Part shown: positions 1,067 to 54,392 of the stretch, in pieces
Layout: every line of letters begins with the position of its first letter
Numbering within the stretch: the stretch's first letter is position 1
Origin: Isurus oxyrinchus
Lineage: Eukaryota
Reading direction: 5' to 3'
NCBI GenBank assembly: GCA_026770705.1
Contig: JANJGN010000027.1
Coordinates: forward strand, 19,096,001 to 19,160,000
Length of the DNA: 64,000 nucleotides
Made by a program: the position numbers and the translations under genes
Notes under the pieces: model-generated
What the model saw: only the letters and a program-made list of their open reading frames with translations
What the model was told of the DNA's origin: nothing
Database searches by the model: none

Positions 1067-2115
1067 TTAGCCCTTTCTCTCATTCCAGCACAAGTCTCTG
1101 ACTCCATTAAAAACATTATTTACATGATCCCATATCTCCCCTTCAAGTCTCTGTTATCATCTCTGGTTCATAGAGATAAGTGCTGTGGTCATTTCATCAA
1201 TCTCCCCAACCTTGTTCTCAACTCTCTCAGAGGTTGCATAGGATTCAAGTTCTCCATATTCTCTCTTGAATCCTGTAGAATAGTATGTGAATCATCAGCG
1301 ACTATTTGTTCTGTTTAGGTTGTCTTTCTGGGTCATATGGGTAGTTTTTCCATTCCATTGTTAGGCGTCATCTTGTAGTTATAAGTGCACTTCTAATTCC
1401 CCTTACTATTCCATTTTCAGTCTCAACAATATCGTGGATTTTGTGTTTTTTCCAGTACTTGGCCTTCTTAATTCTGGTCATGAATCCAGACCGATTCACC
1501 TGGTTGGAGTTCTGGTAAATCATACACTCTATACCACTGAAAATAGTTTCTGGTTTGTCTTGCATGATACCATCTACTTTCTCCCTTACTCTCTCTATAT
1601 CTATTACTTTGACAGAAGGTATAAGTGCATGTGGAACAAAAGGAAGTTGAATATGTAGTTGCCTTCCCATCAAAAGTTCTGATGGAGCCAAACCATGGAG
1701 AAGAGGATACCATCAGTGGTTCCCTTCACTCCTGGCAATGGATTGTGGCGATGCATCTCAAAACCATTTCTCGTAATGATTTTGAGATCCCTGGAATTTC
1801 AGTCTCTAGCATGACACTTTGTAATGCCCAGGTGTCCCTGGTGTCGTATGGTTGATAGCTGGGTGGAGGCTTGCTTTAGCTACAGTTCTGTGTTTAAAAG
1901 AATTGAAACTCTTGCTCCTGTGTCAAATTTGATGTTTGCTTTATGTCCGTTAACCATAATGTCTGCGCTCCAATAGTTCCCATTTGATCCTGTCATTTCT
2001 CCCATTGTCTTCATTGTCTTTATCATCTTCAATTTCTTGAAAGATTTAGGTTGTTTCTCCATTAATTTTTGGTGTTCAGAGCTATTTTCTGTGGCATACA
2101 GAGTTAAATTTTCCT

Positions 2116-2342
2116 AAAAGCAAAATACTATGGATGCAGGAAATCTGAAACAAAAACAAAATTAGCTGGAAAAACTCAGCAGGTCTGACAGCATTTGTGG
2201 AGAGGAAGACAGAATTAGCGTTTCAAGTCCGTATGACTACGTTCTGATGAAGAGTCATACGGACTTGAAACGTTAACTCTGTCTTCCTCTCCTCAGATGC
2301 TGTCAGGCCTGCTGAGTTTTTCCAGCTATTTTTGTTTTTGTT
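2116..2342. mobile_element. Penelope-derived palindromic insertion carrying a minimal hammerhead motif
   Basis: Inverted arms of about 95 bp around 2235-2250; flanked by an imperfect duplication (ttaaattttcct / ttaaatttttct). Confidence 0.75.
2241..2280 (+). ncRNA. Minimal type I hammerhead ribozyme motif (Penelope type)
   Basis: GTT-CTGATGA-A-GAGTC(atacg)GACTT-GAAAC-GTT-AAC: intact catalytic boxes, stem II, loopless palindromic stem III (ACGT) and short stem I (GTT/AAC). Confidence 0.6.
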
Positions 2343-2709
2343 TTAAATTTTTCTCTCTTCTTACAGGAATGAGACTGCATTTTTGGGTGGACCATTCTTC
2401 GGACCGGTGCAACCTATTCCCGCTACAGTTAGAACACTGAATAATGGTGGCTACCGTGCCCTCTTCACTGTTTCCCCATTTTGGATTAGGTGCGTTTCTA
2501 CAAACTGCCCTGTATCAACTGTTTTTCTCCACAAGATCTCTTTGTCATCTCTAGTAAATAATGATTTTGCTTTCTCACTGCTGCCTGCCTTGCTAGCTGC
2601 ACAGCCTTCGATAAGATCAAATCTGTCCCCGGCTACTCTACCAACTGAGGATCCTACAGTACAACATCGATCAGACAATCATGCCATGAGTGATATGTCC
2701 TCTTTCACA

Positions 2710-3700
2710 GGCCAATGCCATGCACTAATTATCTCCCCTTGCTTTCGCAGGCACATCTGGGAAGCAGCCGATGGAGTCCATGACCCAGAACCTCCAAGCA
2801 AGCTCCGAAGAAATCTCTGAAGAGGAATCTGAAGGCACCCTCCCTGAAGTCCTGTCACAGCGCAAACCCACACCCTCCACCATCGTAGAGACACATACCT
2901 CATGGGACCTAGCTTTAAAGTAGCCTCAGGATCACAATCTGGTGATCACATCGCACTTTCTGATCCACAGCAGGTGGAGGCATGGACTTCCTAGGTGTCC
3001 GGCACTGGGAGAACTGCTGGAGGCCAGAACGTTGAGTCAGATGACGAGCCTCTGTACTTGGTCAAGTCACAGTTGCTGGAGCTGCAATGGCAAGCTCAGG
3101 AACAACAGGAAAGGATGTCCGCTGCGCTCCTCAGATTGCAAGGCATGATGGAGGAGTCCGTGCGTCTTCAGGCTGCGCTGGCATTGCAACACACCGAGGT
3201 GAACACTGGCAGATTGGCAACTGCCATGGAGACCTTGGTCTAGGATGTCACTCCTGCACGGGCTTAACTCCATCGCTGATGCCATAGTTGGCCTCCAACA
3301 GTGTGTATGCGAGAGGGGTGCTGGGCAGCTCGATTTCACTCCAGCTACCCCTTCCGCTCACTGAGTCAGCCAGGAGCCCTTAGGCACCCATAGGGAGGAG
3401 AATCAGTAGGTGAATGCTCTGGGGCCATCCAACCAGGTGACTCTGGGAGTGAGTGGCCCATCTCACTCCCCTCTTCCAGTGACCTCCGCAGATCCAGCTT
3501 CACAGGCTGAGGAGGGTGCCACTGCCACACAGCAGGACCCTGAAAGCAGGCCGGGGGCCTCCAAATCTCAACCCTCCAGAGGACGCCCGCCAAAGTCATC
3601 ACAGACAGGGCGTCGCAGTCATCAGGCTGCCTCCACCTCTGCTGTGTAAGTCCGGGGAGCACCAAGGCTTGGTAGCAGAATTAGGAAAGTTAAGGAGAAA
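2710..3700 (+). pseudogene. C-terminal part of the Harbinger second (Myb/SANT-type) gene, degenerate
   Basis: Coiled-coil-like QLLELQWQAQEQQERMSAALLRLQGMMEES and a low-complexity S/P/Q tail, convergent with the transposase. The Myb domain itself is not visible, so the assignment rests on Harbinger architecture. Confidence 0.55.
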
Positions 3701-4411
3701 TAGTTGCAGAGTCTGAGCAAAGGTGTTAATTACTTGTACATAATGTTCACTATTGTCAATAAATTCAAGAATGTCTCCCTGCCTGTGGCACCTTGTTCTG
3801 ATGAGCAGTGTTCTTGCCACTCAGATGTGAAACCTTTCTGCACAAGATAAAAGGCAGGTGTCCCAGTCCAGGGCCTCTTACCTGTGCAGACCACAGTGAT
3901 GGTCCAGCTTCATGCTCCCTAGAAACATTACTGATGCCTGCACCTCGGCAGTGCTGGTCATTGCTGCCAGAATGTAGTGGGCAGGCAGCACAGAGTTCTC
4001 TCATACTCTCAGTGTGCTCTCAGCACCTTTAAGGTGGGGCTGGCCTCCATCACACCAGCATCTGTGACCAGTGATGCTCTGCACCAACTCCTGAAGAGCT
4101 GAAATGCTGAAGGCGGACAGAGCATCAGATGCATCTAAAGTTTCATGGCTGTGTCTCTGAGATGGCCCTGATCACGGAGCACAAAAGAGTTGCCCTCGGC
4201 CAGACAGGAGTAAGGCATTCTCAGAGGCTATGTGAAGATCTATGAAGTGTCCTCACTGCATGTCATCATCATCCTCCTGCGATCAAGTGACTATTAGGGC
4301 CTCCACTGCATCTCCTTGCCTGCAGCATTTTCACAGAGGGTATTGGTGCTGCGATAAGCCAGACTTGAGTCAAACGTTCACAACTACGATGTGAGGATCT
4401 ACGGGGACACC

Positions 4412-5640
4412 TCACTGCATGTTGTCATCATCCTCCACAAACCTGGCAGCTACGAGGGCCTCCTGAGTGCGCCTGTCTCGTCTAGCCAGTGCGAGAGTCT
4501 CATCCACATCGTCGTCACCATCGAGGACCTCCTCACCCTCATCCCCGTCAGTTTCCTCCTCATTGGAGGAGACATGATGCTCTTCCATCTCCTCACCCCG
4601 TTGCAGCATCAGGTTGTAAAGGGTGCAGCAGATGATGATGATGTGTGACACCCTCCGTGGACTATATTGCAGGGCTCCACCAGACTGGCCCACGCACCAG
4701 AACCTCATCTTCAACATCCTGATGGTCTGTTCCACCAAGTTGCTAGTTCTGCATGAGCCTCATTGTAGCGTCGCTCTGCTGCAGTCTGAGGTGTCTGAGG
4801 AGCATGGGAGTCATCAGCCAAGGCCTCTGAAGGCAGCCCTTGAGCCCAACCCTGCAGCCTCTGTGGACCCTGGAAGACTGCAGGGATCTGTGAATGACCC
4901 AGGATGTAGGATTGTGCACACTCCCTGGAAACTGTGTGCATACCTGCAGGATGCGTTTCTGGTGGTCGGATACCAGCTGTACGTTCAGTGAGTGAAAGCC
5001 CTTGCGGTTGATGAAGTCCACTGAGTGTAGCGATGGAGACCTGAGCACCACATGAGTGCAGTCGATCACACCCTGCACCAGTGGGAATCCTGAGATCAGG
5101 GAGAATCCAATGGCCCTTGCATCCTGGCTGTCCCAGTCCCGGGCGAAATGCACAAAGTTGTGTGCCATGGAGAAGATGGCTTCCGTGACCTCATGGATGC
5201 ATTTGTGGGTGGTGGATTGTAATCCCACAGAGGTCACCTGTGGAGCTCTGAAAGGAGCGACTGGCATAGAAATTGAGCACAACAGTCACTTTCACAGCCA
5301 CTGGCGGTGGATGCCCTCCATGTCCCCTTGGCTCCAAGTCCTGCAGTGAGGGACAGATGTGAGCCACCAGGTCCCTAGACTTGCACAGTTGTCGGCGATG
5401 CTGGTTCTCAGTCATCTGGAGGAATGGCACGTGGCCTCTATAGACCAAGTGTCGCCAGGCGCTGACCAGCCACGGCTCATTGTCACTCCTGGGCAGCGTG
5501 TGCGGGAGCCCCTGCTGCCCCTTCTTCATGAGGCTGCTGCTCCTGCCTTTGCTCAGCCAGGAGCCTCAGTCATTCTCTCCTCCGTCTCCTACGGTCCCTG
5601 TAGGCCATCAGGCATACAGCTAGGTCACCGGGATCCATGA
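4412..5640 (-). pseudogene. HARBI1-like DDE transposase of the Harbinger element, frameshifted
   Basis: GFPLVQGVIDCTHV, FINRKGFHSLNVQLV, FPGSVH, VEQTIRMLKMRF..LQYSP..IIIICCTLYNL spread across ORFs 5191..5529, 4743..5282, 4711..4941 and 4412..4738. Confidence 0.9.
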
Positions 5641-6893
5641 TTCTGACATGGTCCTCCTGCAGCATGAACGAGAGAGAGAGACGTGGTTATCATGGTTGCA
5701 CTTAGCCCCTTTCCTGGCCCTGTGTGACCGACCCTTTATGCTTCCCGGAGAGTGCTGGTCACCCCTCGGATGGCCAGAGATGAGTGTGCTGCATGGCTGC
5801 CCTGTCAACCTGTGACATGGGGGATACTGGTCCAAACCAGGATGCTGAGATTGCCAGGGGCTGTGAGCCCTCCAGCAGTGACTGCTACATGGCCAGCGTT
5901 GGTGAGGAGATTGTACAATGTGTGCAGTCCAACTGCTCCGCGGTCCAGTAAAGTGATGACAGGGTCGAAGTCTGTGCTGGGGGTGGGGGTGTTAAGGTAT
6001 GGAGCGCTTGGTGGCCCTTTGGTGCCTCTGCGATGCTTGCATGGGTGGGCAGGCTAGCAGCCTAACCCCAATCATATCATTGTGGCTGTGCCTGATCTGT
6101 CTTAGTTGTAAAGGCCTGGTCAGTTTATACAGGTGTCCCTAATATGTGGCTGCTTCCTCGCTCACCCTGTCCCCCGCCTGCCGGTGGGATATAGCGCCAG
6201 GGCAACATTTGACCACCCCACCCCCCACCTCAGCAGTCACCTCTGAGACTGGGCAACACTTGTCCCTGGACACACCCCATCCCTCAGCAGTCGCCTGCGG
6301 GGGCCAGGCAGCACCTTCCCCCAACCCCCGGTGCCCCTGAGGCCTGTAAACGACAGGTGAGCTGTGGAGAACACTGCTGCTCACTCACCTCAGTTCCCCC
6401 AAAGTGAAGGCCGCCAAATGCACGTGGTGAAACACGTAGGAGTGTTTTCTCACCAACGTGGATGGACGATACGGCGGGGTTCCAAGAGCCTGGCGGGATG
6501 GCCTTTTGATTCTTTGCTAATGGATTACAATTACCTCCCTACCATTGTGAAGTGGGTCCAGCCATATTTTCCGTGCACACCACCACCTATCAACCCGCTG
6601 CCAGAGGGCTGGGAAAATTCCACCCTAAGGCTTCTACAACAACATGATCCCAAATTAATTCGTTTTTCAGGGCTCCATATTCACAATTCTCAGCTCGTCA
6701 ATATAAATCGTTAGTGAGGGAATCTACATTCTCTCCTGGTCTTTGGGTATGTCTACTGAACTCTGCTCTTTGTATAATGGTGTTTCTTCTAAGGCTAAAA
6801 CAAGTGTCAAAGGCTTTGAAAACCTCTTCGTGTGTTGCCGTTTCTTCATTTATGCCATCTGACCATACAGTCGTCGGCTGCACCACTGCCTTT

Positions 6894-25221: not shown

Positions 25222-25315
25222 CTCATCAGTTTGGGTGAACTGTTGGGTGAATTTCGCATACCTCCATTTCGCTGCTTTTTTTTGGGTGACAGAGCTGATG
25301 GGTTTTCATCTTGAA
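25222..25315 (-). CDS. KCNMA1: KCNMA1 exon, [32 protein letters not shown] (RCK1-RCK2 linker)
   Basis: ttgcag|TTCAAGATG...CTGATGAG|gtaaga; 94 nt, phase 1-2. Confidence 0.97.
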
Positions 25316-27903
25316 CTGCAAACATATGGAAGATGGGAGATTAGGAGCCATTTTAAGTCTGATATGAAATGAAAATGGAATATTAAAAAATGCATATTAA
25401 ACAGAAAGTGACTCATTATGAAAGTTAAAGGTCCCCATTACAGGCAACTAACAAGATTTGAGAATAAGAGAGTAATATGGGAAAAGCATTAATCAAAATG
25501 AGTTTAAAACCCTATATATCACATCTAGGGTTATGTATTATTCAGTATTATTCAGACTATGGTGCTATAAGGACAGTAAAACAGATAATTAAAGGAAAAT
25601 TTAAAGCAATACACATACAAACAAAAAGTAAAGGAAAGCTCTGAGTGGAAACAGCCTAAATTTGGGTGGTTAGGAATACAAAGCATCACCTGCCACTCCA
25701 AAAATCCAAGTAAACCACACTCAGTATAGAGTTAATATATGTAATGTTCTAAAGTAATTTATTAAAAAATAAATCAAACCACTCAGTTAAAGATGGTGTC
25801 ATTCTGAGCTTGCAGTTTTCACAAATGGGCTCCTGTGTTCAATCAGCAGTGGCCGATGGAACTACATATGCACAACTTGCAGTACTAGGCAAAGCATACA
25901 GGGTGAGAGAAAATACTGCAGGGTGCGTCCCTCTGCCTTTCAAACAATGGCTGTTAAAAAAGGTAGACAAAGTTTAACTGAAGTATTTAATCTATTATGA
26001 AAATGCTACTAATTTTGTTGGTCCACTTAAACAGTATGTGACCACTCTGAAAATGTTAAAACCCACACAACACTGTGCCTGTATATCTTGCTTGTTGTTC
26101 TGTTCAAAGGGATTTAAATGCATTTAGGCAAATAACATATTTTCAGTTACTCTAACATCATCTGACACCTTATTTACATGTTTATTGAATCATTGGAATT
26201 CAATTGGAATTGTTAAAACAGGTACTGAGTTAAGACGTTACTGTGGTCTTTGCAATTTGTAGCTTTAGTTTTGTTAGGGTGAGAACTAATGTTTCGTATG
26301 CACGTTGGGCTATGGTGTGAATTCAGTGACTCATGCAAGGACTATAACTAGGATTATCGACAGACAATGGAAACCTGCAACTAATTGAGGAATCTTATAG
26401 AATGACAGGTCAGGAAAGGGTAGGTGGATTGAAGGTATGGGAAGAGGAGTGAAAAGATAGAGGAACGTAAGGTCGTTTCCAATGATTGGAGTCATGGAGT
26501 ACAGGAAATAAGGTGCTTTGGGAAACTGCAGGAGGACATTACAGTTTTGGGGTCTGCTGAATGTGCCTTTCCATTTATCATCTGCTGTATGCCATTAACC
26601 CTTTTGGTTTGTGCAGAATTACTGCATTTTATACAGCAGGAGCATGATAAGAATACTCCCCCAGCCTTCAATACTGAACCCAATGACAGCAGCAACAACA
26701 AAAGAAGATATTTCTCTCTAAAGTGCACATTGGAATAAATTGAGATATTGCAACTGCTCCAATATTTTTGACACAATTGAAAAAGGCTGCCAGATTCTAC
26801 AGGAGAGCTCGATTTCACTGTGGCTGTCAGACTATGACGAACACATCAACCAACATCGAACACCACTGTCTAGAACACAATTAGCAAGAGATTAGATTCT
26901 AGTATAATATGCTTCTTAAAATGAAACGCTTGCCAAGGGTTCTGGAGGGCTGCAGCAGTGACGACAGTGTTAGTTGGAAAGAAAATAATTCATGGGCTGT
27001 TAAATCAGGGTGGACTGAGATATTGGCTGATTTAAAATGTTAAAGAGCAGGGTTTTGGCTCAGAAATTTTCAAACATTTTCTGGAACATCTTTAGTCAAA
27101 CTTCAAACTGTTATTACTGGCAACTGATAAGATGACACAGTCCCCCAGACAGAGATCCACAAAGCCTGGAAAAGCACATTCTTTACCTTTAAAGCTGTAA
27201 TATTACTGTGAAACCACAAAATGTTTTCATTCCTCATTTGCATGTAATTTTATAACTTATTTGAACATTCATTTCTTTAACATTAAATCAGCACAGGCAG
27301 GTGGTTCCGAAAATGTAGATAGGCTTCATCCATTTGTGTTACTTATAAACAGCAACACACACAATAATGGATGTGTACCTGTAGGTGCATACAGCAGTTA
27401 CTGGGGCTGCACAGTATAATCTGTAGCTACTAATAGTTCTGCATGATATACTGAAAAATAGGCACAATCACTGTTAAAGAATTTAAGAGCGTACCCAAAC
27501 AGATGTCTGCTGTGTTTATGCATATTATTCTGAAAGTCAGAACATTTCTGCTCATTTCTAACTAAATAAATTCAGTAAATTGTACTTATTCTATCCAAAT
27601 CTCATAGCCTATCAACACTACAAAAGCTGAGTTTTAAACTCTCAAACTCTGCAAATGGCTGTTTTTATTAAGACGAGTTCTTTTTGTGTGTCTGTATGCC
27701 CTTGTAGCTTGAAAGTTAATTGTATTTATTTGAGTTTGTTTAAATGCTGCAAAGAAATGGAGACTTAGTTCAGATCAGACAATAAAAGGATCACTTCTGG
27801 GTGGACTGTACTCCTGTCACCACTTGGCAGATTTTCTGTCTGTGTGCTGAGTTTTTTTAAGTAATGTTTGAAAGGAGAAAAAAAGGCACCCCAAACTATA
27901 CTG

Positions 27904-28244
27904 TCATGCACAGCTGTCAGCACTGGCTGCAGAATGTGGCCAAGGGCACCTATGGAGGTCATTGAAAGCAGAGCGGATGGGCTGGCACCTGTATTTCCTG
28001 GGCAAGCTTAGTGCCCGATGCAATTTACACTGGACAACACTTCCCTGTTCCCTCACATTCAGCCGACTTAGGCGACTGAGTGAAGGGTCTCTGAACAAGT
28101 AAACGTCCCCTTTGTTCCTGTTAACAAGCAGCATGGATTCTGCCTTTTCTGGAACAGGTGCAGGCTTTGGCAATACCATGTGATCTGTGGAATTGTGGGC
28201 TTTAAATGACTCACTTAGTGAACCTGCTTTAGCTTCATCCTTTA
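27904..28244 (-). CDS. KCNMA1: KCNMA1 exon-22-like alternative exon, open to a stop codon (putative alternative terminal exon; internal donor would give a 30-nt form, 28215..28244)
   Basis: Acceptor ctcctctttcatacttgtcag|TAAAGGAT is in phase 1. Peptide LKDEAKAGSLSESFKAHNSTDHMVLPKP resembles rodent e22 (LKVEARAR...VPKP, recalled). The frame stays open to TGA at 27904, and AATAAA follows at 27725-27730 and 27664-27669. Confidence 0.7.
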
Positions 28245-31200
28245 CTGACAAGTATGAAAGAGGAGATACATTAAAAACAAATTTGAACTAAGCATCTGCA
28301 TTGTCAGAAATTATTTTTGGTAACATTTTACAACTTCTTTTCCCTGTTCTATTTTTAAAAAATACTTGAATCAAATTTTACTGACAAGTCTACTGACTAA
28401 AATATATAATCAGATGTTACAGTGGTACCAGTAGTCACCAGCCAATAGGGATGCAGAACTAATAATCTCCAACGAGGTAACAGTCTAAAAAGCTGTACTA
28501 TACACCTGTGCTTGTAGTTCATTATCTGGGATGCTGGCAAGTCACTCAGAAGCAATCTGCATTAGTACAAATTGTACAGATAACAAACACACTCGCAACC
28601 TTATGACTCTGTTGCAAGGTTTAGTGCTTATAATTGAATTGATGGTAACAACTTACACATCTGTTCCTTAAGCAATCTTTTAACAACCTGAACAATATGA
28701 TGTATTCCAGGAACATAAACGGTGTCAAACTAGATACCAACCAAAGAGCAAATTTCCCAAATTCTGTTTTAAATATAATTGACCATTTAACGAGAAATCA
28801 AATCATGCTTAAAAAGAAACCTATGCATTTTCCCACTCCTCTCACCACTTTGATATTCTCCTATTGTCTGCAAGTTTTTCAGTCTCTCACTCTATGCTCC
28901 AATTGAGAGGATGAGTTCTTCAAGGGTCCTAAAAAAGGTGATCTGGATCCATATATTAAGGGACAACCTAGCTGGAAGTTTCAGGACTTTCATGCTATTT
29001 TTTTTATAAACTTGCTATCCATTTGGGAAGTGCCTGGCCACTATTCACCACCTGTACCTCAGCGTGGCTAAGCTAGGGAATGCAGTGTGTGCAAAAAGCC
29101 AAGGTCCAGCCCCATTTCCTTCATTTCTGAGGTGCGGTAGACAGAAGATTAAAGTGATTTGCTACCAGGAAACCAGACCTTTTTTCCTTATTTACTCAGC
29201 AATGCAACCTTCTCTCTTGCTAACTTCAGCTCCCATGCTGCATCCTCAACACCAAGGGGTTAACATTGTTACCTGCAAAATGGGCAACTAAGCAGCAGCG
29301 AGATTTCCCATTGAAAATGAATCTAGCTACAAGCTCTCTAAGGTTGCAAAATGTTGTCCTCTGGTTTGCTAGTCAGAATTGTATTTAGCAATATCGTGCT
29401 CTCCACAATGGGCCCCCACCTTGAAAATAATAACCAGTACAGAGTCACAAACTCTGCAGTCTATGCTTTGTGCTGACACTCATCATTACAAGCTCAATTT
29501 CTGCACGGCAGCAATGGAGTGCACTGATTTAGTGGGAGAAACCCCATTGAAATTAAACTGGGTTAGTGCTCCTTTAATACTGGCCAACATGGCACACAGA
29601 CCTAATTCTTGAGCCGAGGTTTCAGTCACATGACTCCCTTGAAGGCTCCACCCCCTTTCTAGCCTACCTCCCATCAAGCACACAAGATAAAAAATAGCCA
29701 GTGGTATTGAGAATACTGAATAAAAGTAACTTCTGAAAAGAAAATTTGTCCGTCCATCAAATAATTTTAGCTGAAATTAATAAATGGTGACGTCAATTAC
29801 AGTTCGATTGATGCCAAATCTTAAGGTGCCTTTCCTACAATCTCTGGCAGGATAATAACAGGGCCTAAGTGGAAATAATGTGTGACTCATGCATGCTTCA
29901 TTAATGTGTGCAGTAATTGTAATAAATAGTGCCCTGTGAACAATAGCAAATTATTTGGGTTAATTCAATATTTGGAAAAGTGCTTGAGAGATCAACAATA
30001 ATACAAATAAATATTTATAGAAAACATTGTGCCATATTTAATTATGAGCATCTCCTCATGAATGACTTGTTAAAAATAATTCTTTTGCAGTATTTATCAC
30101 GTTCCACTAATGACTTTGCAAATTCGATAAGAAGTTGAGCATTGAGGGTTTTTGAAAACTCAGATTAAATCCTTACAACAGACTGGAGTTCTGAACCAAG
30201 CATCCAAACCTGAGGAAATGTAATGTGTTTTAGATTTCTCCTGTTACTGGGTAATTAGACAGGGTTAATTCATTTCATCTGGTCATTATTACAAATCTTA
30301 CTGAACTGATTGTCAAGCATCAGAAAATGTCAGAATAACTTATTGAGTTCATTTCACTTTTAATATAAGCCAATGGCTTTTTTGAAAAATATTGCACTTC
30401 CACATTAATGAGGACACTTCCTGAAATCTTTGGACAACAGCAGCAAAATCCCCAAACTAGCTTAGAGCAATCCGTAGAGGTTGATTCTAACGTCAGCTGC
30501 TGCTTAGATTCAAACCCCCGCACCGATAACTCCTGGATTCATCTGCGTGTTGTCAAACATGTACAGCATTAGTTTGAGAATTCGCAGGGTGGCAGTTTCA
30601 CTGAGGATCCAGAATGATCCAGACGGCTGCTGTCTATTTACGCACGGTAAGGCAAATGATGTGCTTGCCGTGCATTTTTTCTCAGTTATGCAATGACTGG
30701 TTAGCAATTGAAAAGATAACATATGAGAACATATTCCTATTTTTATCAGTAACCATGCTTCCTCAGCCTCATTATTTATATTTCCCAGCTTGTTCAATTT
30801 TGGAGTTTAAAAGCCTTTGTCTCATCACTGGTAAAGGGAATGATGTAAAACATTGCTAGAGAATATCTCTCTGGATATGGTCAGCTACAATCATTTAGAT
30901 GTTGTGCTTTATAGGTGTTGTAGATGGACTGTTGCATTTCCCTATATGTGAAATAAGAACTGGTCATACTCTGATGTCCATTCAAATCTGGTGTCCATCA
31001 GTTATATTCCTTTGTACAATCTAGAGAGTTAATAATTTTAACATAAAAAGGCTTCAGAAAGGTACATTGAGATCTTTGATACTGTATTTAGGGTCAAATG
31101 CTACAGAATGTTCTTGTCACTTGTGCAGAATAAATAGGAGGTAAGGAAATAAGCAGTCTATTTACTCTAATGTCAAAGGGCATTTGCCCGTGTGAGAGAC

Positions 31201-31659: not shown

Positions 31660-34600
31660 TTTACTTATTTTCACAAGAATTGTTTCTTTAGTGCGTATCT
31701 AATCTCCTATCCCTGGAACATAGCCTTTTGAAATCTAAATGAAGCATTCTAAATGATAGATAATGCATATTAAAAACAGTATCCATATTTGGGGTTGCTG
31801 AGCAGTCCTCAAACAATACCACAGTCCATGTCATTGCACTTTTTAGCTCAACCACCACATTGTTGCTCTCACACTACAACAATGCATAACTGTAAGAAAG
31901 CACATACAGCTTTTAATGTAGCAATAAAGAGGCACAGGCTATCAAAAAAGCAAATAGACAGGAGAGAGTAAATCCAATCTTTGGTCCCGATAATGTTCAT
32001 GGAAACATCTGAATGCTGCCCTCCTCATGGTTTTACTGGCACCATTAGAAACGCTTGCTCTACCTGAAGGATTGTGGCTTTGTCTCAGGTACCCGTGTAA
32101 CTGTCTGGACTCCATTTCAGCTTCATACAAAGATCATTTTTAGAACCCTTAAGATTACGCTCTTGCGTAATATGTTCGGAGATTGAGCAGACTGGAAATC
32201 AGGATGGAGTAGTGGAAGTGACAGAGGATGGCTCAGCAGGCATTTCGAATACGTCCAGCAATTATTTTTGATCAATGGGCAGAACAGCACTTGAAGACTT
32301 GCCACAAGCGGCAGCTCAAAGGAGCCAGAGCTTTGCTGACGCTGCTGGCATCTGCACTTGAAGATTCGGCAGAAAGGAGCTGCTGATATAGATACTCTTC
32401 CTCTGCATGTTTCAACTACAACTTCCCTCCGCCGAGCTCCCCAATGCCTCATTACAATTCTCCAGAGAGTAGCTGAAGCATAACTACTAGGAAGGTCCTG
32501 TGTCTGATCTCAAGTCTGTGTCGTGTTAACTTATTTCAGGCATGGGGGCGACCCAACCACTCTGGGTTAGAGAGGCACAAATTGGGTTTCCGTTATTGAT
32601 AGGGGCACGTGTTTAAATGTTGAGCTGGGGACATTATGTAATTGTTTCCCACATGCTTGTTCATACTCCCTGTCAAGATAAATAATAACCACTCGAACAA
32701 AACACTGGAGGGTGACCAGCACCTGTGTAACCATACCGTGTTTGGACAGAACCTTAAAGAATTGGAGAGAAAAAAATCTAATTTAAAGGCCAGAGCTTCA
32801 GCTAAAGGGCCCAGATATTTGACCTTATTTGTGTCGACTCAGGCACAAGCCAGGGACATAAACGAACAGGCTTAAGATTCAAAGGATCAATATCAGCCAT
32901 TTTTTCTGAGCGAACCTTGATTATGGCTGATCCTGATATCACTGAAATCTAATTGACAAAGTGGTTGCAAAAAAAAACTAAAATAGGTAATCACTGCACT
33001 CCAACTAGAAGGATAAATCTAAAGGAATGGAAGCAAACCATAGACGGGCAGGGTAGTTGGGTTAAGGGGAGAACATGGGGAAAAATAAGTCAAACAGGAG
33101 GCAAAAGGTACAGGGATAAATTAATTGTTGACACACCAATGACTTACTTGAGCTGATATATCCGTTATAGCCATATTTTGCTAAAGACAATGCAAAAAAA
33201 TGACAGTTAAAAGATGCGGAAAACAAGAGTCATGTTTCATGAAAGGTCAATGAGAAGCACAGGGAACTTTAAGTTTCAAAAAGTCAGGATTGGTAATGCT
33301 TTCTGCCCACTGCCTCCCCATATATGTTGTATTGCTTTTTGTGCTTGTCTCCATATACAAATTAGTTCTTAAGCCAAGTGATCACTGATGTATAATGGGC
33401 AAAATTCCCAGCAATATATTCAACAGTACCACGAAAGGTATGCTGAAAATGACATGTCGCATATCCTATAGTGAGCATCAGAGGTCCTAGAGCCAATACA
33501 AACATTCTTTCACTGGATCGGTACCATTGAGGAGAAATGCCAAGGTGCGCCAATCTCTATTAAGCTTGTTGTAAAGTATGGTAAGTGTTTCCATGCCCTA
33601 TCCCTTGCCCCACACCCCATTAATACCAACAGGTGGAAAGGGGCTTATGATGCTGGGCAGCAGGCATAGCACCTTCTGAAGTCAAATATAACTACGCAAT
33701 TGCACCACAGCATTTCTGTCATTTACAAACTGAACCAGAGAGATTGCTGGGGAAATTCCTTAAAAGTAGAACATAGAACAATGAAGGGGTTGTGAAGAGG
33801 AGAAAAATATGTTTTTTTATGAAAGGAGTAATCTCTACGGTGAAGCAACAGGTCATCTTTTTTAAAGGCCAAAACTGAAAGAATTCTGATGGAAAATGAG
33901 TTCAATCCCAATTATGCTGAAGAAACTTAACGATAGAGAACAGCAGTGCTATATTGACCAAGTAAAGGGATAAACTAATTGTTTACAAACCAATGACTTA
34001 CATGAGCTGATACATCTGACAGACAGCACCACATTGTTCCTTTGCAATCTAAGTAGCTTTTGCTTTTCTGTATGGTGTTCCACTCTGGAGCTAATGTTAG
34101 CAGAAGAACTGCCTCACTAAAATTATTGAATTCAGTGCTGACAAGTGCGATTGCTGTCTGCATCTAGATAGCCTGGGTGGAACTCTGTTTCTAATGCAGG
34201 CTGACTTGAGGGAAGGAACAGGAGCTGAAATTTGCTTTGAGCCTGCTCTGGATGAAGGTTTGTGCTTCTCCATAAAAGCTTTTGTTTTATTCACAAAAGG
34301 TCACTCTTTGGACTGAAGGCAGGAATGTGACAGAAATGTTCCTGGGAAACAGTTCTTGTCCTGGCATCTGTCGCTTGGAATAGTCCGGAGTGAAAGGGCT
34401 CCGAAAAATAACTGCTGAGCATCTGTCTTGCACAAAAAATGTTGCAAGAAGAATCTGCTGCCTGGTGGTAAGAAACTGTCAGGGTGAGTTTCATGACAAC
34501 CAGCAGCACTCAGAAAATGAAAACGCAAACATAATTTCCATGTCACCACATATAAACCCTCCACTGAATTCACAGCAGAAGATGCAGACAGCATCATTTC

Positions 34601-40000: not shown

Positions 40001-40524
40001 TTCAAATGCTAACAAAACTGGAATAAAAGTCAGATTGAATAAGATTAAAATAAAACATTGGCAGTTGGTCTAGCATCAAGACTAGCTCACTCCAACTATA
40101 TGCAGCCAATCCCAATAAAGACATAACCAATCTGCCAAGTACTGCTCTACTTGGCTCAAGACTGTGCTTCGATCAGGGTTTCCATTTAATAAGAGTGGAT
40201 AGGAATGGTACTCTGTAATTATCTACTTGGAACAGGATTCCTGAACAACATCAACAAATGGAAATGGTAACCATAAGGGTAAAGGTTCTTATGCAACAGC
40301 AATGAATGGGACTGATATATTGTAAGGACATACATACAGTAGCTGTGGTTACAGACGTACACTGTAACTCTGCAGCTGGGCAGGGTCTCGTGTACAATAA
40401 TGGTAACTGGAAACGGTACATTGCAACTCTGTACCTCAGTCAGTATTCATAAGAAATAGGAATTATACACTCCAGTTCTGCACTTGGAACAAGGTTTGTA
40501 CACAACAGGAGTGTATTATTGGAA

Positions 40525-40756
40525 TAAAAACAAAGAGAACTGCGGATGCTGGAAATCCAAAACAAAAACAGAATTACCTGGAAAAACTCAGCAGGTCTGG
40601 CAGCATCGGCGGAGAAGAAAAGAGTTGACGTTTCGAGTCCTCATGACCCTTCGACAGTTCTGTCGAAGGGTCATGAGGACTCGAAACATCAACTCTTTTC
40701 TTCTCCGCCGATGCTGCCAGACCTGCTGAGTTTTTCCAGGTAATTCTGTTTTTGTT
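40525..40756. mobile_element. Young Penelope-derived hairpin insertion with a 14-bp TSD
   Basis: Arms 40561-40657 and 40660-40756 are reverse complements with one mismatch. TSD gtgtattattggaa at 40511-40524 and 40757-40770. Confidence 0.88.
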
Positions 40757-41184
40757 GTGTATTATTGGAAGTTCATTAATGTGTCTTCACTGTTAGTAGC
40801 CCACTTTTCTCTGATTAGTTTTCAGCAATTTTATTTTACTATAAATCAGATATAAATTCCCTCTCTATGATCCCATCAGAAAGTTGACTACAGCTTATCA
40901 ATCCCTTTGGCAACATGTAGATAGAATTAAATATTGTTGTTTCGCTTCAAGAGCCCTTGACAGCAACTATTTATTCACAATGTGTTTTTGGAAACTGATT
41001 TTCTTAATTGGCCATGGTTTTACTCTTCTTAAAATTGCCCACTATTTAACAAACATTCTTGTTCTGCTCTCGCTGAAACAAGAACCATCAGGGCAGAGAG
41101 TGTGTATGGTCAATTTGCTCCCAGCCCACTCCCAGAGTTGCTCATAACCAACCACCAGGAAGTGTCGAAGTGAACTGGTTACAA

Positions 41185-48650: not shown

Positions 48651-48824
48651 AGGCACGTAAACTGGTGGAGCAATCATTAACAGAGACAGAAGAAAGTGGG
48701 AAGGTTCTCTCAAGGGTGTCCAAGTTACTATGTATACTGTCTGACATGCAAGTGCAGTCACGCTCACAGCGTCCGCAATCAAAACAACATGCGAGTTTCA
48801 TTCTCTTGTAGATGGACATCTTGG
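48651..48824 (-). CDS. KCNMA1: KCNMA1 STREX alternative exon, PKMSIYKRMKLACCFDCGRCERDCTCMSDSIHSNLDTLERTFPLSSVSVNDCSTSLRA
   Basis: tatag|CCAAGATG...CGTGCCT|gtaagt; exactly 174 nt, phase 1-1; cysteine-rich STREX peptide visible inside ORF 48400..48876. Confidence 0.97.

Positions 48825-54281: not shown

Positions 54282-54392
<111 letters not shown>

What the first reader, a model, noticed from the sequence alone, without database searches (positions are those of the whole stretch)
27664..28244. Exon-22-like exon that reads on to a stop and poly(A) signals: a BK channel truncated before RCK2 and the Ca2+ bowl
Seen: a strong phase-1 acceptor at 28244, then an open frame adding 113 residues (LKDEAKAGSL...GDVYLFRDPSLSRLSRLNVREQGSVVQCKLHRALSLPRKYRCQP...SCA*), with two minus-strand AATAAA 175-240 nt past the stop. 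There is no GT where the mammalian 87-nt e22 would end (CCT G|CACC). The only strong in-phase donor is TAA|GTGAGT, giving a 30-nt exon. Recalled, unverified: the N-terminus aligns with rodent e22, and a similar VYxFRDP...EQGSV...KLHRALSLPxKYR stretch occurs in some tetrapod truncated isoforms. Inference: an ancient alternative last exon yielding a subunit with RCK1 plus a new basic tail (RALS is a kinase-like motif), possibly dominant-negative or Ca2+-bowl-independent.
Basis: partly seen in the sequence, partly recalled or inferred. Interest (0 to 1): 0.7.

Follow-up and report, generated by a model that had tools for sequence, protein, structure and literature searches.

The report
Ancient BK exon with dead donor
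In the BK potassium-channel gene of what is likely a shark, an optional 291-base exon that bird and frog gene models place inside full-length channels has its exit splice signal changed from GT to AT, so the long open frame is likely a decaying leftover, now probably used only as a 30-base mini-exon, not an ancient truncated channel.

Summary
The acceptor (28244), the 113-residue frame, the stop and both AATAAA are real, and the coding sequence is old. It is not an ancient last exon. Profile searches find it as an internal, in-frame insert of about 98 aa between exons 19 and 23 in KCNMA1 models of birds, turtles, frogs and newts; 193 of 193 named proteins carrying its motif keep the Ca2+ bowl. 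Bird DNA ends the exon at GACCTCC|GTAGGT; the window reads GACCTCC|ATAGGT at the aligned place (27954|27953), giving 291 nt in both. A relative about 1.3% divergent shares the AT. The reported stop overlaps a TGCATG intron element that also follows the bird donor. The window's copy has a long branch (0.85 vs 0.12), has lost the otherwise invariant NNRKGS, and has a strong in-frame donor at +30 that the bird lacks. Most likely: exon cut to a 30-nt cassette (0.5); otherwise skipped (0.28), derived terminal exon with truncated channel (0.15), or cryptic donors (0.07). No RNA evidence was obtained. Rat e22 looks like the 5' third of the same exon.

The parts
27954..28244 (-). Orthologue of the ancestral 291-nt (97-codon, phase 1-1) KCNMA1 C2 cassette exon
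   Evidence: Same length as the bird exon from its second tandem acceptor (291 nt; 294 from the first); tblastn of chicken isoform E 3e-10
28245..28290 (-). Polypyrimidine tract and CAG acceptor
   Evidence: no difference listed here in the relative's X1 contig
28215..28244 (-). Predicted 30-nt in-frame cassette (10 residues) if the +30 donor is used
   Evidence: sequence; use inferred, no reads
28207..28217 (-). Strong in-frame internal donor TAA|GTGAGT, absent from the bird sequence (CAA|AATGTT)
   Evidence: P0001 has N-D where the window has S-E, which cannot spell GT there
28105..28122 (-). Degenerate first motif NRNKGD (NNRKGS in all other sequences)
   Evidence: NNRKGS in 95 of 95 distinct other segments
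28000..28017 (-). Retained second motif RALSLP (RxxSxP)
   Evidence: RA[RL]SLPxKY in 89 of 95 distinct other segments
27948..27956 (-). Dead ancestral donor TCC|ATAGGT (bird TCC|GTAGGT); +1 G>A at 27953, a CpG site
   Evidence: shared by the relative (all 13 differences of X1 record 3 are listed, none here)
27904..27953 (-). Former intron read in frame: 15 codons after the split codon, then TGA
   Evidence: tails after the donor differ in every lineage
27905..27910 (-). TGCATG (RBFOX-type element, name recalled) 43 nt after the dead donor; overlaps the stop codon
   Evidence: bird has it 47 nt after its donor; 25 copies on this strand in 64 kb
27725..27730 (-). AATAAA, use untested
27664..27669 (-). 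AATAAA, use untested
54287..54363 (-). Upstream constitutive exon 19 (ends CGCKR, phase 1)
48651..48824 (-). STREX exon, 174 nt
33148..33180 (-). 33-nt C2 cassette (KYGYNGYISS), like the insert in a cloned skate channel
25222..25315 (-). Downstream exon 23 (begins TT, phase 1; QDENP)

Best explanation
This is the orthologue of an old internal KCNMA1 exon of about 97-99 codons whose own splice donor reads AT instead of GT here; it is likely now spliced, if at all, at a newer donor 30 bases in, which would add 10 residues to a full-length channel while the rest of the old exon likely decays. Shown: homology, exon length, the GT>AT difference against bird DNA, its presence in a close relative, the +30 donor and its absence in bird. 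Inferred: the order of events (the new proximal donor appears, outcompetes the distal one, downstream codons lose constraint, the CpG in the old donor deaminates), and that the 30-nt form is made. The open frame to 27904 is then a by-product: the old exon has no stop and the old intron gives 15 more codons. Sub-odds: ancestral internal cassette with dead donor 0.93; present use as 30-nt cassette 0.5.
For: 119 of 119 named hits listed are full-length with Ca2+ bowl; 193 of 193 after adding cluster members; inserts of 98 aa in 162 of the 190 parsed. Spliced versus genomic read-through fixes the donor: bird DL-L-EDE vs DL-R-R-stop, frog EL-F-EDE vs EL-C-M-stop. Bird DNA L002 GACCTCC|GTAGGT vs window GACCTCC|ATAGGT, 12 of 13 identical, TGCATG at +47 vs +43. 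All 49 unnamed genomic read-throughs have C, R or S then R, K or M near the exon end, compatible with xGT-A (read by eye, position allowed to shift). Acceleration: window-only vs P0001-only changes in the 50-aa core 10:3, 11:3, 11:3, 12:2 by outgroup (p 0.09, 0.06, 0.06, 0.013; not independent); end branch 0.85 vs 0.12; NNRKGS lost here, kept in 95 of 95 others. Neutral decay to 8-10 core changes leaves no stop in 49-60% of simulations and no frameshift in about half. First 30 nt match bird at 22 of 30, the next 27 at 14 of 27. Internal-donor shortening recurs: a frog model ends the exon after NNRK (P0251) and rat e22 is 29 aa.
Against: No junction read supports any form. Against the relative, the old exon shows 2 nonsynonymous and 3 synonymous changes where neutrality predicts about 2.5 and 1.2 (p 0.18): uninformative, but leaning to continued constraint. 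No stop or frameshift despite the long branch (joint chance about 0.25-0.35). RALSLP is intact. No TGC lies in the 20 nt before the acceptor, unlike the 33-nt exon (SRRM4 rule recalled). The donor score is a crude U1-pairing count. The pairing of the window with P0001 has support 87/83 only and P0001 is unnamed; its intact donor is inferred from residues. Word-based searches favour sequences that keep the motifs, which inflates 95 of 95. 144 of the 264 hits were not listed and could include truncated forms.
Confidence: 0.5

Rival explanations
1. Pseudo-exon: after loss of the donor the exon is skipped, or rarely included through the out-of-frame GT four bases downstream (TAG|GTGCCC, 295 nt) and destroyed by nonsense-mediated decay; the +30 donor is a chance product of drift.
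For: Dead donor, long branch and lost motif fit equally. A GTRAGT in frame in 300 nt is not rare (about 5%, my arithmetic). A 30-nt exon without a proximal TGC may be poorly defined (recalled). Two cloned skate channels lack this insert (PMC10486799 Table 1).
Against: The acceptor stays strong and unchanged in the relative; two substitutions relative to P0001's residues are needed to spell GTGAG in frame; first 30 nt are the best-kept part against bird.
Confidence: 0.28
2. Derived alternative last exon: with no exit donor, transcripts entering at 28244 read through to TGA 27904 and are cleaved after an AATAAA, giving a subunit with RCK1 and a 113-residue tail but no RCK2 or Ca2+ bowl, likely held in the ER and possibly dominant-negative.
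For: Open frame without stop or indel in two genomes, stop and both hexamers unchanged in X1; two AATAAA in 300 nt occur in 3.9% of stretches; RALSLP kept; 2N:3S in the old exon. Precedent: truncated murine delta-e23 and rabbit rbSlo2 are retained inside the cell (PMC2906319 introduction).
Against: A strong in-frame donor sits at +30 and would compete with read-through. The 15 post-donor codons have 2 nonsynonymous and 0 synonymous changes against the relative. No truncated form among 193 named proteins. The stop is part of an intronic TGCATG shared with bird.
Confidence: 0.15
3. Near-full cassette kept through another in-frame donor (for example AGT|GTAAAT at offset 216, or offsets 321/333), so a full-length channel carries a 72- to 111-residue insert.
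For: In-frame GTs exist at offsets 168, 177, 204, 216, 321, 333; would explain the open frame.
Against: All score at most 5.5, below the +30 site and below 7 of 7 correctly placed flanking donors (7-9); offset 216 would drop RALSLP.
Confidence: 0.07

Closest known systems
About 98-aa C2 insert in RefSeq/UniRef KCNMA1 models of birds, turtles, frogs and newts (e.g. chicken isoform X4, P0020)
   Same: Same intron, acceptor, phase, 291-nt length and both motif blocks; 24-26 of 50 core residues identical.
   Different: Donor is AT here; NNRKGS changed; new +30 donor. These are predicted isoforms, not cloned cDNAs that I saw.
Mammalian e22 / hbr5, +29 aa at site C2 (PMC3393747 Table 1; PMC3989361 Table 1)
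   Same: Starts at the same place: 11 of 29 residues identical to the bird exon without gaps (compared by eye).
   Different: Ends after 87 nt and lacks both motifs; the window has no GT at the equivalent place.
Xenopus xSlo99 (Kukuljan et al. 2003; recalled, paper not held; citation seen)
   Same: Recalled as a 99-residue insert at the same splice site; frog models here also show 15-, 56- to 59- and 96- to 99-residue inserts.
   Different: Identity with this exon not checked.
C-terminally truncated BK variants delta-e23 and rbSlo2 (PMC2906319, passage)
   Same: Would lack RCK2, like the read-through product.
   Different: They come from other splicing events; this exon gives no truncation in tetrapod models.

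Membership tests
KCNMA1 C2 long cassette exon | Lies between exons 19 and 23 of KCNMA1 | tested here: met
KCNMA1 C2 long cassette exon | Sequence homology from the acceptor to the exon end | tested here: met
   E 3e-10 to chicken isoform; 47% to P0001
KCNMA1 C2 long cassette exon | Symmetric phase 1-1, length a multiple of 3 | tested here: met
   291 nt in window and bird
KCNMA1 C2 long cassette exon | GT donor at the exon end | tested here: not met
   AT at 27953; so an orthologue, not a working member
KCNMA1 C2 long cassette exon | NNRKGS motif | tested here: not met
   NRNKGD here; 95 of 95 others keep it
Alternative last exon | Acceptor followed by open frame to a stop | tested here: met
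Alternative last exon | Poly(A) hexamer downstream beyond chance | tested here: inconclusive
   two AATAAA; 3.9% of 300-nt stretches have two
Alternative last exon | No strong competing internal donor | tested here: not met
   TAA|GTGAGT at +30
Alternative last exon | Truncated form and tail conserved in other vertebrates | tested here: not met
   0 of 193 named proteins truncated; tails differ
Alternative last exon | Polyadenylated reads ending after the hexamers | not testable with these tools
   no RNA run holding the stretch was listed
Short in-frame cassette (30 nt) | Frame-keeping length with strong acceptor and GT donor | tested here: met
Short in-frame cassette (30 nt) | TGC just upstream of the acceptor (SRRM4-type neural microexon; rule recalled) | tested here: not met
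   none in the last 20 nt; present before the 33-nt exon
Short in-frame cassette (30 nt) | Junction reads on both sides | not tested
   no RNA test of the junctions was completed

The most novel reading that the evidence does not exclude
One CpG change in a splice donor turned an internal BK-channel exon shared by jawed vertebrates into a polyadenylated last exon, so this lineage makes a truncated subunit (RCK1 plus a 113-residue tail with an RxxSxP motif, no RCK2 or Ca2+ bowl) that tunes BK surface expression as a dominant negative.
Probability: 0.15. Interest if true: 0.65.

Novelty: new variant of a known kind. Interest (0 to 1): 0.38.

Why it matters
It removes the claim of an ancient truncated BK isoform and leaves two smaller points. 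First, the RCK1-RCK2 linker of non-mammalian vertebrates has an optional insert of about 98 aa with two near-invariant short motifs (RKGS, PKA-like; RAxSLP, 14-3-3-like; both assignments recalled, untested), of which mammalian e22 seems to be the 5' stub; I found no functional study of it in the library searched. Second, this lineage seems to have cut the same exon short independently, a clean natural case of exon shortening or death by splice-site turnover that one RT-PCR can settle.

Tried and rejected
Single-sequence search of longer proteins: 0 of 248 candidates at E 0.001 or better; weak evidence that no close shark isoform is annotated. P0004 and P0005 (2 of 5 hits) are unrelated repeat proteins and were dropped. 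PDB and Pfam (0 of 5 members): no match. AlphaFold: mean pLDDT 48, pTM 0.14, no fold; not searched further. No RNA holder listed; X1-X3 cover introns, so they are DNA; X10 (RNA by guess) gave no contig on 26000-30800, which is no evidence. The junction test on RNA contigs was not completed, so expression is open. Assembly error at 27953 rejected: X1 record 3 (27405-28423) has 13 differences, all 13 listed, none there; for X2 and X3, 17 of 21 and 27 of 29 are listed. A second copy with an intact donor rejected: one match in the genome, one tblastn hit in the window, which holds the whole exon 19-23 interval. U12-type AT-AC reading rejected: ATAGGTGC is not ATATCCTT (consensus recalled). The e18 donor was misplaced by one base and left out of the comparison. 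Homologues of a frog 15-aa and a passerine 51-aa insert: only chance-level hits. Papers not held: Chen 2005, Miranda-Rottmann 2010, King 2016, Kukuljan 2003; these may describe the long exon. Table S1 of PMC10486799 (cross-species C2 linkers) could not be read. Earlier scan notes: none by sequence, two unrelated by words.

Full report
Setting. The window holds the middle of KCNMA1 on the minus strand. A chicken isoform maps by tblastn to seven exons between 57404 and 11841. Site C2 contains, in order, exon 19 (54363-54287), STREX (48824-48651), a 33-nt exon (33180-33148), the candidate (28244) and exon 23 (from 25315). The genome has 4.98 Gb and exon 23 begins QDENP as in skate, so a cartilaginous fish, likely a shark, is inferred.

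Observation. The acceptor, the 113-residue frame, the stop at 27906-27904, both AATAAA and the +30 donor are as described. Only 1 of 73 acceptor-like sites on this strand is followed by so long a frame. The hexamers are weak evidence: 19% of 300-nt stretches hold one, 3.9% two.

Homologues. phmmer over 1.84 billion representatives gave 5 hits, 3 of them real (P0001 47%, P0002, P0003); two repeat proteins were dropped. A profile of these found 264 longer proteins among 7991 scored; 120 were listed, 119 of them named KCNMA1 models of birds, a turtle, frogs and a newt. All 119 have the Ca2+ bowl. With members of ten clusters, 193 of 207 named proteins carry NNRKGS and all 193 have the bowl; 190 could be parsed, with inserts of 98 (162), 96 (9), 149 (8), 91 (6), 99 (4) and 97 (1) residues. 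A second search gave 45 short unnamed proteins of 94 candidates, 44 of them new, with both motif blocks; they branch apart from tetrapods and are likely ray-finned fish (inferred). So the exon is old and internal.

The exon end. Spliced bird models read DL-L-EDE while genomic read-throughs read DL-R-R-stop; frogs read EL-F-EDE against EL-C-M-stop. This places a phase-1 GT donor right after DL/EL. One DNA locus came from a metagenome scan (1 of 110 stretches); it translates to the bird exon. It reads GACCTCC|GTAGGT; the window reads GACCTCC|ATAGGT at the aligned place, and both exons measure 291 nt from the equivalent acceptor. All 49 unnamed read-throughs have residues compatible with xGT-A near this place (by eye, lenient). 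The AT is not an assembly error: a relative about 1.3% divergent has it, along with the acceptor, the +30 donor, the stop and both hexamers (X1 fully accounted for, X2 and X3 nearly).

Signs of decay. In the 50-residue core the window has 10-12 private changes against 2-3 for its nearest sequence P0001 (p 0.013-0.09 by outgroup, not independent); end branches are 0.85 and 0.12, with the pair supported at only 87/83. NNRKGS is in 95 of 95 distinct other segments and changed here; the searches favour such sequences. Neutral simulations reaching 8-10 core changes keep the frame free of stops in 49-60% of runs, with about even odds of no frameshift, so the open frame does not need selection. Against this, the relative shows 2 nonsynonymous and 3 synonymous changes in the old exon (p 0.18) and 2 and 0 in the post-donor tail: too few to decide.

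Likely present use. The best donor in or after the exon is TAA|GTGAGT at +30, in frame (7.0; seven correctly placed flanking donors score 7-9). Bird has CAA|AATGTT there and P0001 has N-D, so it is likely new. I infer that it took over, freed the rest of the exon from selection, and let the CpG of the old donor mutate. The product would be a full-length channel with 10 extra linker residues. Shortening at internal donors recurs: frog model P0251, and rat e22, which matches the first 29 residues of the bird exon at 11 positions without gaps (by eye). Rivals are skipping (0.28), a derived last exon (0.15) and weak in-frame donors (0.07). No RNA evidence separates them: no RNA holder was listed and the junction test was not completed.

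If the truncated form exists, it would likely stay inside the cell like delta-e23 and rbSlo2 (PMC2906319). The insert has no Pfam or PDB match and no predicted fold, in line with the unstructured RCK1-RCK2 linker described in the same paper. RKGS as a PKA site and RAxSLP as a 14-3-3 site are recalled consensus matches, untested.

Literature seen. Passages: PMC3393747 (with Table 1), 10.1101/274449, PMC1562363, PMC2803478, PMC10018040, PMC3989361 (with Table 1), PMC2906319. PMC10486799: section 3.2, Table 1 and passages; its supplement was unreadable. Ten searches (listings only, apart from the papers above) showed no description of the long exon or of its donor loss, but four key papers are not held, and I recall a 99-residue Xenopus insert, xSlo99, that is likely this exon.

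Verdict. Real exon, known in kind from gene models; new detail is the lineage-specific donor loss and likely shortening. Interest 0.38.

Noticed in passing
window 33148-33180 (-): 33-nt cassette with strong sites (TTTAG|CAAAA ... CAA|GTAAGT) and TGC before the acceptor; encodes KYGYNGYISS, the counterpart of the 12-aa insert called unique to one skate clone in PMC10486799.
   Followed up: partly
window 48651-48824 (-): Intact 174-nt STREX exon, although both cloned skate electroreceptor channels lack it.
   Followed up: partly
L002 1390-1394: Bird exon has a tandem acceptor (TTAG|AAG|TA); the window keeps only the second, so the insert is one residue shorter. P0001, frog and newt residues fit the first.
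   Followed up: partly
window 28223 (-): A weak GT at offset 21 is GC in the relative (difference at 28222), so it is not a kept donor.
   Followed up: yes
window 25316-25360 (-): The intron end before exon 23 translates ..MFAV like the end of a frog 15-aa insert (P0199), suggesting that insert is an upstream acceptor of exon 23; here a TAA closes that frame.
   Followed up: no
P0100, P0181, P0182: Passerine models carry a further 51-aa C2 insert with no counterpart found in the window.
   Followed up: partly
P0128-P0168: Unnamed fish-like fragments fall into two groups, perhaps the two teleost kcnma1 copies, both keeping LVNNRKGS and RARSLPVKYRY; several read-throughs contain CM or MH, compatible with a downstream TGCATG.
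   Followed up: no
window about 1300-6400: GC-richer stretch with several long open frames on both strands, resembling transposon remnants.
   Followed up: no
window about 40460-40760: Near-identical peptides appear on both strands, indicating an inverted repeat of a few hundred bases.
   Followed up: no
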